Shown piece by piece: positions 24,946 through 28,092 of a stretch of 32,669 bases of DNA; within the stretch, counting starts at the first letter, position 1; every line of letters begins with the position of its first letter. Below the pieces are notes generated by a model. The model did no database searches, was not told where the DNA came from, and saw nothing but the letters and a program-made list of their open reading frames with translations. The stretch spans positions 1 to 32,669 of the forward strand of contig JTLS01000090.1 of NCBI GenBank assembly GCA_000826855.1, written 5' to 3'. A program made the translations under genes and the position numbers. This DNA is from Basidioascus undulatus. Its lineage: Eukaryota.

Positions 24946-25319
24946 TCAAAGGGTCGACCCGTACGGTGAAGTGGTCGAGCGGTAGCGGGAAGGCCAGATC
25001 CCATTCTTCCCTGGAGCTATGATGCCGTTCGGGTCGATTGTGTCCTTGAGCTGGTTGTTCAACTTCATGATGGCGCCGCTGAGAGACAGACTCGGTGTCA
25101 GTGAAAGAGTCTGCCCAACAGCGGGAGCAGCAGACGCACTCGTTAAACTTGTACGTCTGAGCCATCTGGTCCATTGCCGAAAGATGCGTGCGGTACTCGC
25201 CATCTGCAAGAGCGTTCAGTCACGGGTGATCACGGCTAAGCATGTTTTTAGTGCCCAAGCGGAAAGCATGGAGTAGAAGACATAAACCCGGCTGCCGCAG
25301 CATCGTCAATCTGGAGGAG
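24946..25319 (-). pseudogene. C-terminal three exons of a vanillyl-alcohol oxidase (VAO/PCMH family) gene, detached
   Basis: LLQIDDAAAAG | YGEYRTHLSAMDQMAQTYKFN | GAIMKLNNQLKDTIDPNGIIAPGKNGIWPSRY...* is the characteristic VAO/PCMH C-terminus (GEYRTH, KDxxDPNGIxAPGKxGIWP). No upstream exons on this strand. Confidence 0.9.
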
Positions 25320-25408
25320 GCAGCTACATAAAGTTCTAGAGTCGTGCAACATAACGACCACAATTTTCATCGCTCTAATTACAGCACACAACCACCATCC
25401 TAAGCGCC

Positions 25409-28092
25409 ATGGTCGAGCCTACATGCAAGGAGCTCACGCAGGCTCCCGGTCGACCGAAGGACAAGAGCGCGTACGTCCTCCCACCCGATGTGAGCGTGGA
25501 AATGTTCGAGGACTTCATCAAGACGGCCGAGGCAATTGTTGGCGTCGAGCACGTCGCGATCAACAATGCGGCAGTGTCCGAAGAGCGGAACTATGAGGAG
25601 CAGCCTCGCTTTCACGATTATTTCGATGTGCGCTCTGTTTTCTTCAGTCACCTCCTTCACGCCGGAATTTTAGCTGAGAATTACTCTTGTTGCAGATTGG
25701 GATTGACGAGCAGCAGTACGCTGCCTCTGCTGCCGTCCAGCCTGCGGACGTCGAGCAGGTGGGTGTCCTTGATGCTGGCTGCCTTGTTTGTTGGCTGACT
25801 TTCCCGACTCACTTTCCTGGCTGCGTGCTACAGGCTCAGAAGCTCGTTCGTCTCGCAAATGAACACATGATGCCCCTCAACCCCATCAGCATTGGTAGGA
25901 ACCTCGGGTAGGTTTTGTTTTTGATCCGTTTCCTCGGGCCTCTCCCTCACCAGGCAACCGGGACTTGAAGCTATGATGGCGCTGCTCCTCGGCTGCGCGG
26001 TGCGGTAATTGTCAAATTGAAGCGCATGAACAAGATCCTTGGTGAGTTAACATGTAGTGGGCTCCAATCGGGCGACCCTTTTGGAAAGTGTCTTGCTAAT
26101 CGCCAGTTGCAATCAGAGATCAACGAGAAAATCGGCTATGCTCTTCTTAAACCCGGTTGGCCCACCGTAATTTTCTAGTTTGTGGAGACTAAGATATTGT
26201 AAACGCTTTCCAGCAGTCAGCTACTTCGACCTTCACAAGCACCTCAAGGAGATCGGGAGCAAGCCGTGGATGTCTTGTCCTGATCTCGAGTGAGGCAGCG
26301 TTCTAGGAAACATCATAGAACGAGGGTGAGTCCAAAGGCTTAGAGGATTCTTCCGAGGCTGATGATCTTTTCAAATCCACAGGTGCGGGTACACTGTAAG
26401 TCCATGAGTAAAGGGTGCTGTTTTACTCTTTTCGCTGACCGCAACCCTCCCTTTCCGCTCGAAAGCCCTACGGCGACCAGTACGCCCAGGACTCATTATC
26501 TGATAACACCGACTGACCATTACCTCTCTGATTCAGCTTCATGATTGTGCGTCCCAGTGCGGCTCGGTTTGTATTCTCTCTCTGTATACGCCGACACGGC
26601 CAATCATCAGCACTGCGGCATAGAAATTATGCTTCCGAACGGCGAGCTCATCCGTACCGGAATGGGTGCTCTGCCCGGTGAAAATACCTGGCAGCTCTTA
26701 CAATACTGGTTTGGGCCGTATCATGACGGACTTTTCACGCAAGCGTGAGCCCTATTTGAAGCTCAACAGCGCTTCTTCAACTGCTCATACTCATATGCCC
26801 GTGCAGCAACTTCGGCATCTGTACCAAAGTCGGCGTTTGGCTCATGCCGGACCCTGGCGGGTATAAGCCTTACTGTATCACATTCCCTCGCGACGAGGGT
26901 AAGCAAAGAAGTCCCACCCTCGCCCAGCATTGCACAGCAGCACCCTCACAAATGCACTTCATGTGACAGACATTCATCAGGCGGTTGAGATCCTTCGTCC
27001 CTTGCGCATTTCAATGGCTAATCAGAGCGCGTTCAAGTGACCACCTGCGGCATGACCTTCAAGCAGCTGATGAGCGCGGCGTGGAATAGACGTGCCCACT
27101 CTTCGACACGTCTTGATCGATGCAGCCTGCCAGAAGTACTATTACGATGGCAATGGACCCATCCCTGAATAGCGGTGCGTGTGAAGCACATCAAATCCCT
27201 CTCAATGCAGCGTTCATCACTGTGGGATGGACAGCGTCAAGGAGATCGCGAAGGACCTCAACCTCGGCATTTGGCAGTTCTATGGCGCCATCTACGGTAT
27301 TGCAAGCTCATCCGAGGGGCTACATTGCGCAAGCTGACCTCTATCCTATTAAGGTCTGCCTGCCGTACAAGAGGCGACTTGGTCCATCATCAAGGTGAGA
27401 ATTGCAAAGCTGCTCTCACTGCGGTTGTCACAGCATGCTCACATTGTTTCGGTAAAAGGCCGCGTTCGGGCAAATTCCGAATTCTTCTTTGAGGGTATGC
27501 CTCCACAAGAATACCGGATGTTGCCAGAGCTAGACCTGACCCGAGCCATGATTATTGGCTGGCTTATCAGAGGATGTCTCCAAGACACACATTCCGCACT
27601 CTCGGGCCAAGACACTGGCCGGCGTCCCAAGAGATCGATTTAGTGGCACCCACAATTTTAAATTAGATCAGTCCGGGTGAAAGGTACGCTAAACATAGCG
27701 GGCCAACAGCTGGTCTCGTAGCTTCCCAATGGGAGCCACGTCTTCTTCTCGCCGATTTCGCCGGCAGCGGGAGAGGATGCTACCAAGCAGGTCCATCTTG
27801 TCAGGCAGCGATGCCACGAGTTCGGATTCGACTACATCTTAACTTCCGTGAGTCCAGCAATTTCCCGATTCAGAGGGTGAACTTCCATACATATATGCTC
27901 TTCCAACAGCTGGTTGGGTTTCGCGACATGCACCAGTGGGTCGTTTCCAGTCCAGGCCCTGGCCTTGACTGTTCTGCGTCCCTTTTTGTTCACATCCATT
28001 TTCTGCCCCCCAACTCCGTGTTGTCTGCCTGGGTCTGCCTGGTATTCGATAAGAAGGATCCTGACTCTAAGCGTCGCATGCGCGCCCTGTTC
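25409..28092 (+). pseudogene. N-terminal/main part of a VAO/PCMH-family FAD oxidase, with premature stops and lacking its C-terminus
   Basis: [150 protein letters not shown]. In-frame stops at 26291 (TGA), 27170 (TAG) and 27719 (TAG). Confidence 0.9.

What the first reader, a model, noticed from the sequence alone, without database searches (positions are those of the whole stretch)
24946..28092. VAO-family oxidase gene cut in two by a ~2.77 kb inversion; halves on opposite strands rejoin in frame
Seen: the + strand part ends abruptly mid-exon at ...CGC GCC CTG TTC (RALF, 28092). The missing C-terminus lies on the - strand just left of the gene's own ATG, beginning CTC CTC CAG ATT GAC GAT (25319 downward). 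Inverting ~25320-28092 gives continuous RMRALF-LLQ-IDDAAAAGYGEYRTH, the spacing expected in this family, with apparently no bases lost. The other restored junction reads GCTGCAGC (a short palindrome) ~90 nt upstream of the ATG. Inference: a clean inversion with at most ~1 nt microhomology and no long inverted repeats broke the CDS and detached it from its promoter. A programmed invertible switch or trans-splicing is conceivable but unlikely given three premature stops.
Basis: partly seen in the sequence, partly recalled or inferred. Interest (0 to 1): 0.75.

Follow-up and report, generated by a model that had tools for sequence, protein, structure and literature searches.

The report
Dead oxidase gene split by inversion
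A single-copy fungal gene for a phenol-oxidising enzyme, riddled with disabling mutations, lies in two pieces on opposite DNA strands because a stretch of about 2.8 kb was flipped, which is a real but ordinary scar of genome rearrangement.

Summary
The split is real. A single-copy, intron-rich 4-phenol oxidase (VAO/PCMH family) gene runs on + from 25409 to about 28092. Its last ~75 codons run on - from 25310 to 24946. The halves are complementary and are the genome's only matches. Contigs of two runs span both junctions in one piece, so assembly error is unlikely; both runs may be this DNA's source.

All 11 reciprocal breaks across the 9 unconserved bases keep the frame. The claimed join puts Gln in a column that is hydrophobic in 236 of 236 homologues. 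Those 9 bases look like a 3' splice site, and a good donor sits 8 bases past 28092, so the break more likely lies in an intron (odds about 6:1, range 0.35-28).

The gene is dead regardless: three stops, a frameshift, two lost splice sites, 10 of 91 conserved residues altered. No inverted repeats, so non-homologous repair is inferred. Switch and trans-splicing readings are unlikely. The scan noted similar inversion scars on other DNA. Ordinary; interest low.

The parts
25409..28092 (+). N-terminal part of a 4-phenol oxidase (VAO/PCMH family) pseudogene, PsVAO residues ~1-488, about 20 short exons; its last exon may run on to 28100
   Evidence: tblastn, spliced alignment, PDB hits to VAO/EUGO/PCMH; 52.7% identity over 465 columns to P0159
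25320..25408 (+). 5' leader with a TATA-like stretch near 25325-25332, all that is left upstream of the ATG
   Evidence: sequence; promoter role is inference
25311..25319 (-). Left breakpoint zone about 25311-25325
   Evidence: such a 9-mer occurs 0 of 1309 times in the gene's exons and 0 in 3898 bases of local intergenic DNA
25286..25310 (-). 25-nt micro-exon, PsVAO residues 492-499
25204..25285 (-). intron whose donor no longer begins with G (splice site lost)
25140..25203 (-). exon carrying the equivalents of Tyr503 and Arg504 (phenolate binding)
   Evidence: residue roles from PMC10404669
25079..25139 (-). intact 61-nt GT-AG intron
24946..25078 (-). last exon, ending in the natural stop at 24948-24946; weak hit to the end of PF02913
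   Evidence: E 0.012, below the curated cut-off
26291..26293 (+). premature TGA (Trp in the closest homologues)
27170..27172 (+). premature TAG
27459..27494 (+). exon with a frameshift
   Evidence: one search found no clean in-frame path either
27630..27720 (+). disordered stretch; holds an intron-like remnant of only 26 nt (27683-27708), pointing to internal deletion
   Evidence: reading of the remnant by eye
27719..27721 (+). premature TAG (Trp in homologues)
28023..28042 (+). 10-nt tandem duplication where the acceptor of the intron starting at 27936 should be; no AG acceptor left
28093..28106 (+). 8 bases (Ser-Gly + 2 nt) then a donor-like GTGTGC at 28101, one base short of the register the family needs. 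Right breakpoint zone about 28091-28180
   Evidence: a donor this good occurs 2 times in 1408 bases of 28093-29500

Best explanation
A unitary pseudogene split by an accidental small inversion. The ancestral gene lay whole on the - strand, reading from about 28000 down to 24946. Two breaks, one 80-100 bases upstream of the ATG and one near the 3' end of the gene, were rejoined in flipped orientation without long homology, most likely by non-homologous or microhomology-mediated end joining. This put the 5' four-fifths on + with only ~90 bases of its leader and left the tail on - with no promoter of its own. The 3' break more likely fell in an intron just before PsVAO residue 492 (about 65-70%) than in the exon. 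Shown: the arrangement, single copy, the lesions, no long repeats. Inferred: the ancestral order, the repair pathway, the intron. Not known: whether the inversion came before or after the gene died.
For: Complementary halves, the only VAO-like matches in the own genome, 7 of 7 on this contig. One Logan contig in each of two runs of two studies covers 22000-31000 with 0 other letters and 0 gaps and no strand-changing joint. Longest inverted identity between 25290-25408 and 28080-28400 is 7 nt, 6 nt close to the junction, and no long arms among the 25 longest of 139 inverted pairs join the two zones. Lesions: 3 stops, 1 frameshift, lost donor at 25285, lost acceptor with duplication at 28023-28042. 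10 of 91 columns conserved in at least 90% of homologues carry a rare residue in the + half, against a median of 0.9% and 95th percentile of 4.7% in 236 intact homologues. Precedent: small inversions with breakpoints inside genes and an end-joining translocation with 3-bp microhomology in Cryptococcus (PMC3302566, passages).
Against: No genome with the un-inverted order was found, so the ancestral state is inferred from protein order only. Both spanning runs are flagged as possible sources of this DNA. The intron reading needs a lost base, and its odds depend on my own priors: 5.9 central, 0.35 harsh, 28 lenient. The spliced aligner with default penalties did not choose it. A second donor-like site at 28127 also falls in register with the next intron by apparent chance, which shows that such coincidences occur here. 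None of 9 metagenome loci examined has an intron at that position, but they are distant relatives that share few intron positions with this gene.
Confidence: 0.85

Rival explanations
1. Same inversion, but the 3' break lies in the exon, somewhere in the 9 unconserved bases.
Against: Every such join puts Gln, Ser or a stop in a column that is L 214, M 10, C 6, V 5, A 1 of 236; the acceptor-like and donor-like sites would both be chance. This rival is a sub-case of the best explanation, so the confidences overlap.
Confidence: 0.3
2. A more complex history: the tail was inverted and moved, or two nested events with small deletions produced the present order.
For: Other small rearrangements exist in the gene (duplication at 28023-28042, disordered 27630-27720); junction bases cannot be assigned uniquely.
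Against: One inversion explains the order with no coding region missing or doubled; more events add nothing.
Confidence: 0.07
3. The halves are joined at RNA level by spliceosomal trans-splicing across the split intron, as in mod(mdg4) or Giardia.
For: If the break is intronic, a donor ends the + half and an acceptor starts the - half. The tail has 0 rare residues in 19 conserved columns outside the junction. Opposite-strand trans-spliced exons after small inversions exist in Drosophila (PMC4528330, passages).
Against: Three stops, a frameshift and two lost splice sites leave no product. The intron halves could pair over at most 6 nt, no more than shuffles give (6-8 nt in 187 of 200). 0 of 19 against 10 of 91 is not significant (one-sided p about 0.14, by hand). 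The tail itself has a dead donor.
Confidence: 0.02
4. A programmed, reversible DNA switch that restores the gene in the other orientation.
For: The flip is frame-neutral.
Against: No inverted repeats at the junctions; only one orientation in the contigs of two runs (contigs drop rare variants); the restored gene would still be broken.
Confidence: 0.01
5. Assembly error: the genome carries the gene un-inverted.
For: Both spanning runs may be the source of this assembly; no raw or long reads were laid.
Against: Separately assembled contigs of 25,331 and 50,633 bases cross both junctions unbroken and identical; there is no repeat at the junctions to mislead an assembler.
Confidence: 0.03
6. The halves are remnants of two different paralogues.
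For: The tail's best single match is P0178, not the + half's best match P0159 (111 against 102 bits).
Against: The tail is short and conserved, its top 8 matches lie within 12 bits and P0159 ranks third; the halves abut with no overlap and no other copy exists.
Confidence: 0.02

Closest known systems
Small fungal inversions and end-joining rearrangements with breakpoints inside genes (Cryptococcus neoformans var. grubii, PMC3302566)
   Same: Kilobase-scale flip, a breakpoint inside a gene, little or no microhomology; reversing it in silico restores gene order.
   Different: There five of six inversions are tied to repeats or transposons and the reversed translocation gives clean ORFs (passages); here no repeat lies at the junctions and the gene is decayed.
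Vanillyl-alcohol oxidase (PsVAO, PDB 1VAO/2VAO) and 4-phenol oxidases (EUGO, PCMH flavoprotein)
   Same: Same fold family by sequence; equivalents of His61, Tyr108, Asp170, Tyr187, His422, Phe424, Tyr503 and Arg504 are present.
   Different: Lacks the ~15-residue octamerization loop; groups with a basidiomycete-rich clade (support 0.996), not with loop-bearing ascomycete VAOs; it is a pseudogene.
Intragenic trans-splicing: Drosophila mod(mdg4)/lola (PMC4528330), Giardia split genes (PMC10711314)
   Same: Exons of one gene on opposite strands; possibly a split intron.
   Different: Those genes have open frames and demonstrated joined mRNAs; here the frame is broken and no pairing between intron halves is seen.

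Membership tests
4-phenol oxidases, VAO/PCMH family | Sequence homology over FAD-binding and cap domains | tested here: met
   Exon 26611-26742 hits 33 PDB sequences, named VAO, eugenol oxidase, PCMH or oxidoreductase; + half 52.7% identical over 465 columns to P0159, which carries PF01565 and PF02913
4-phenol oxidases, VAO/PCMH family | His422 for covalent FAD; Asp170; Tyr187; Tyr108/Tyr503/Arg504 triad (PMC10404669) | tested here: met
   All present, mapped through P0008 to PsVAO numbering; Tyr503/Arg504 lie in the - strand tail
4-phenol oxidases, VAO/PCMH family | Intact reading frame and enzyme activity | tested here: not met
   3 stops, frameshift, 2 lost splice sites; activity itself not testable
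VAO first subfamily (PsVAO-like) | Octamerization loop after residue ~217 (PMC12909556, PMC10404669) | tested here: not met
   15-residue gap against P0003 and P0008; P0159 lacks it too
VAO second subfamily (clade C7, loop-less; PMC12909556) | No loop; active-site changes such as Phe424 to Ala/Gly | tested here: inconclusive
   Loop absent but Phe424 kept; the C7 reference proteins were not in my tree
Programmed invertible DNA switch | Inverted recombination sites at both ends | tested here: not met
   At most 6-7 nt inverted identity between the junction zones
Programmed invertible DNA switch | Both orientations in the population | tested here: inconclusive
   One orientation in contigs of 2 of 2 covering runs; contigs drop rare variants
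Spliceosomal trans-spliced split gene | Break inside an intron, donor on one piece and acceptor on the other | tested here: inconclusive
   Odds 0.35-28, central 5.9
Spliceosomal trans-spliced split gene | Open joined frame | tested here: not met
Spliceosomal trans-spliced split gene | Joined mRNA reads | not testable with these tools
   No raw RNA reads on offer
Repeat-mediated (ectopic recombination) inversion | Inverted repeat or transposon copies at both breakpoints | tested here: not met
   24500-28600 is single-copy; the one nearby repeat, 29006-29465, has no partner on the left

The most novel reading that the evidence does not exclude
The inversion broke an intron, leaving a donor on one strand and an acceptor on the other, and the fungus kept making the oxidase for a time by spliceosomal trans-splicing of the two transcripts before the gene decayed; a sister lineage might still carry the split gene with open frames. 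That would be a nuclear trans-spliced split gene in a fungus, which my two literature searches did not turn up.
Probability: 0.03. Interest if true: 0.8.

Novelty: new member of a known kind. Interest (0 to 1): 0.17.

Why it matters
As it stands, little: it records loss of a phenol oxidase in one fungal lineage and gives a clean marker inversion for strain or species comparison. It is a warning for annotation, since gene callers will split or miss the locus, and a frame-preserving rejoin does not locate a breakpoint. The side result may matter more to enzymologists: intact relatives form a loop-less clade with named basidiomycete members, whereas PMC10404669 says VAOs occur exclusively in ascomycetes. 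If the trans-splicing case were true it would add a rare mode of gene expression to fungi.

Tried and rejected
No RNA holder was listed. Run X3 looks like RNA (6 GT..AG joints in the flanking genes) and has no contig over 24408-29524; this blank is not used as evidence. Search for sister genomes with the un-inverted order: the right neighbour's exon found 0 relatives among 519 pattern matches in metagenomes; P0158 found 26 loci, of which I aligned 9; none of those has an intron at the junction position and none is close enough to decide. The own genome has no relatives in the genome search. A fragment alignment was misaligned and not used. A 9-nt and a 10-nt inverted match (25323/28799, 25403/28722) suggested an inverted promoter copy, but the sequence between them does not align; treated as chance. 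A 5-nt inverted match at 25320-25324 and 28178-28182, seen by eye, could mark an intronic break but is chance-level. A hidden second gene right of the break: 8 ORFs from 27667-29368 and L014 gave no Pfam hit over its cut-off. A-to-I editing could read two Trp-position stops as Trp (recalled from ascomycetes, no call), but not the frameshift or lost splice sites; rejected. The PF02913 matches on contigs C2276, C989 and C441 are not VAO paralogues, since P0008 does not hit them. Dropped before the count: codons in 27395-27570 and 27630-27720 (disordered). One attempt to locate exon ends by script was not run; coordinates come instead.

Full report
Setting. The window is contig C2878 of a 32.1-Mb, 2992-contig eukaryotic assembly. 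Its genes are intron-rich. The flanking genes both lie on + (GT..AG joints at 22717-23441 and 29765-30668 in run X3). The best named homologue of the gene in question is from Microbotryomycetes sp. JL221, so a basidiomycete is likely; this is inference.

The observation. tblastn with fungal homologues finds exons on + from 25463 to 28089 and on - from 25201 to 24982. A spliced alignment to a profile of 13 close homologues gives the full model: about 20 exons on +, then a 25-nt micro-exon (25310-25286), an exon 25203-25140 and the last exon from 25078 on -, ending at the stop 24948-24946. The 17 introns scored are 57-76 nt long. In the own genome P0008 gives 7 matches, all on this contig: residues 7-457 on +, 499-557 on -. 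The exon 26611-26742 also has one match only. So the halves are complementary pieces of one single-copy gene.

Is it an assembly error? Logan contigs of runs X1 (2014) and X2 (2025, another study) each cover 22000-31000 in one piece, 25,331 and 50,633 bases long, with 0 other letters, 0 gaps and no strand-changing joint. Both are flagged as possible sources of this DNA, so they show that the reads support the arrangement, not that other strains share it. Contigs drop rare variants.

What the gene is. The exon 26611-26742 hits 33 solved sequences named VAO, eugenol oxidase, p-cresol methylhydroxylase or oxidoreductase. Mapping through P0008 to PsVAO numbering shows His61, Tyr108, Asp170, Tyr187, His422, Phe424, Tyr503 and Arg504, the residues named as key in PMC10404669 and PMC12909556 (passages). 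The break separates residues 1-488 from 492-560, so the + half lacks two of the three phenolate-binding residues. The octamerization loop is missing (15-residue gap). In a tree of 37 sequences the read-through groups with P0159, P0158, P0283, P0157, P0272, P0273, P0120, P0155 and P0156 (support 0.996); named members are Microbotryomycetes sp. JL221, Moesziomyces antarcticus and Ustilago trichophora. The 36 homologues were my pick from about 280 fetched.

The gene is dead. Stops lie at 26291, 27170 and 27719. The exon 27459-27494 has a frameshift. 27630-27720 is disordered. The acceptor before 28033 is gone and a 10-nt tandem duplication sits there (28023-28042). On the - half the donor at 25285 is lost. 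In the + half 10 of 91 columns conserved in at least 90% of 236 homologues carry a residue seen in under 2% of them; intact homologues have a median of 0.9%, 95th percentile 4.7%, maximum 12.5% (disordered codons left out). Four of the ten are G>A changes. Lesions in both halves mean decay has gone on for some time. The order of inversion and decay cannot be read from this.

Where the breaks are. But moving both breaks together keeps the frame: 11 positions from 25321/28091 to 25311/28101 all give the family spacing. The third column is L 214, M 10, C 6, V 5, A 1 of 236, and Cys in 6 of the 12 closest. The same 9 bases read as six pyrimidines plus CAG directly before the first conserved codon; that pattern occurs 0 of 1309 times in the gene's exons and 0 times in 3898 bases of local intergenic DNA, though none of the gene's 17 scored acceptors reaches six of six either (best five). 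On +, the sequence after 28092 gives Ser (17 of 236 at that column), Gly, two bases and a donor-like GTGTGC at 28101, the best donor in the next 100 bases, matched twice in 1408 bases. This is one base short of a phase-0 intron. A rough likelihood sum with my own priors gives odds for an intronic break of 5.9 (0.35 harsh, 28 lenient). Against it: the aligner did not choose this path, and a second donor-like site at 28127 falls in register with the next intron by chance. No close orthologue with genomic DNA was found: 9 of 26 metagenome loci aligned have no intron there but share few intron positions with this gene, and ORF ends in the P0158 cluster suggest other intron positions even there. 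I put the intronic break at 65-70%. The palindrome, the '1-nt microhomology' and 'no bases lost' hold only for one unproven choice.

Mechanism. Between 25290-25408 and 28080-28400 the longest inverted identity is 7 nt. 24500-28600 is single-copy. A 460-nt repeat at 29006-29465, 78% like a stretch of contig C618, has no partner on the left. Ectopic recombination and a site-specific switch therefore lack their sites, and end joining of two breaks is the plain inference. PMC3302566 (passages) describes small Cryptococcus inversions, three with a breakpoint in a gene, and a gene-breaking translocation with 3-bp microhomology ascribed to non-homologous end joining.

Trans-splicing. An intronic break makes this thinkable, as at mod(mdg4), where exons on the opposite strand are ascribed to small inversions (PMC4528330, passages), or in Giardia (PMC10711314, passages). 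Here the frame is broken many times, and the two intron halves share at most 6 nt of possible pairing, where shuffles give 6-8 nt in 187 of 200. Searches for a fungal nuclear case listed none; these cover open-access full text only.

Papers. Passages were read from PMC3302566, PMC4528330, PMC10404669, PMC12909556 and PMC10711314. All others were seen only as search listings. No supplements were opened; those of PMC12909556 could settle the relation to clade C7. Two earlier notes of this scan describe similar inversion scars on other DNA; they were not checked and are not counted as support.

Verdict. A real, single-copy 4-phenol oxidase pseudogene split by a small accidental inversion, with breakpoints less certain than first claimed and probably intronic. 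Known kind of event; interest 0.17.

Noticed in passing
P0159, P0158, P0157, P0272, P0273, P0120, P0155, P0156; also P0252, P0231, P0137: Loop-less VAO-like oxidases exist in basidiomycetes (Microbotryomycetes sp. JL221, Moesziomyces antarcticus, Ustilago trichophora; a second clade with Rhodosporidiobolus lusitaniae and Meredithblackwellia eburnea) and in Gonapodya prolifera, although PMC10404669 says VAOs occur exclusively in ascomycetes. No characterisation surfaced.
   Followed up: partly
window 29006-29465; L014:1501-1967 (G000:C618:2101-2567): A ~460-nt non-coding stretch 78% identical to one other place in the genome; two copies found, no Pfam hit nearby; possibly a transposon remnant or old duplication.
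   Followed up: partly
window 28023-28042: 10-nt tandem duplication with loss of the adjacent splice acceptor, 50 bases from the right breakpoint zone; could be a repair or excision footprint.
   Followed up: partly
window 28101-28141 and 28127: The + strand after the last exon also reads as a complete 41-nt GT..CAG intron-like stretch, and a donor-like site at 28127 lies in register with the next intron of the gene; taken as chance.
   Followed up: partly
window 28713-28799 (- strand): A TATA-like 9-mer and an ATG-containing 10-mer identical to those of the oxidase leader, at similar spacing (86 against 89 nt) but with no similarity in between; a 46-codon frame follows, no Pfam hit.
   Followed up: partly
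window 22700-24223 (+): Left neighbour, spliced in run X3; its C-terminal part resembles Ino80 subunit Ies1 (recalled, no call confirms it).
   Followed up: no
window 29600-32669 (+): Right neighbour, spliced in run X3, with a weak PH-domain hit (E 0.34); runs off the contig end.
   Followed up: partly
window 14778-15070: 27-nt coding-like tandem repeats encoding a Gly/Tyr/Pro/Gln-rich low-complexity stretch.
   Followed up: no
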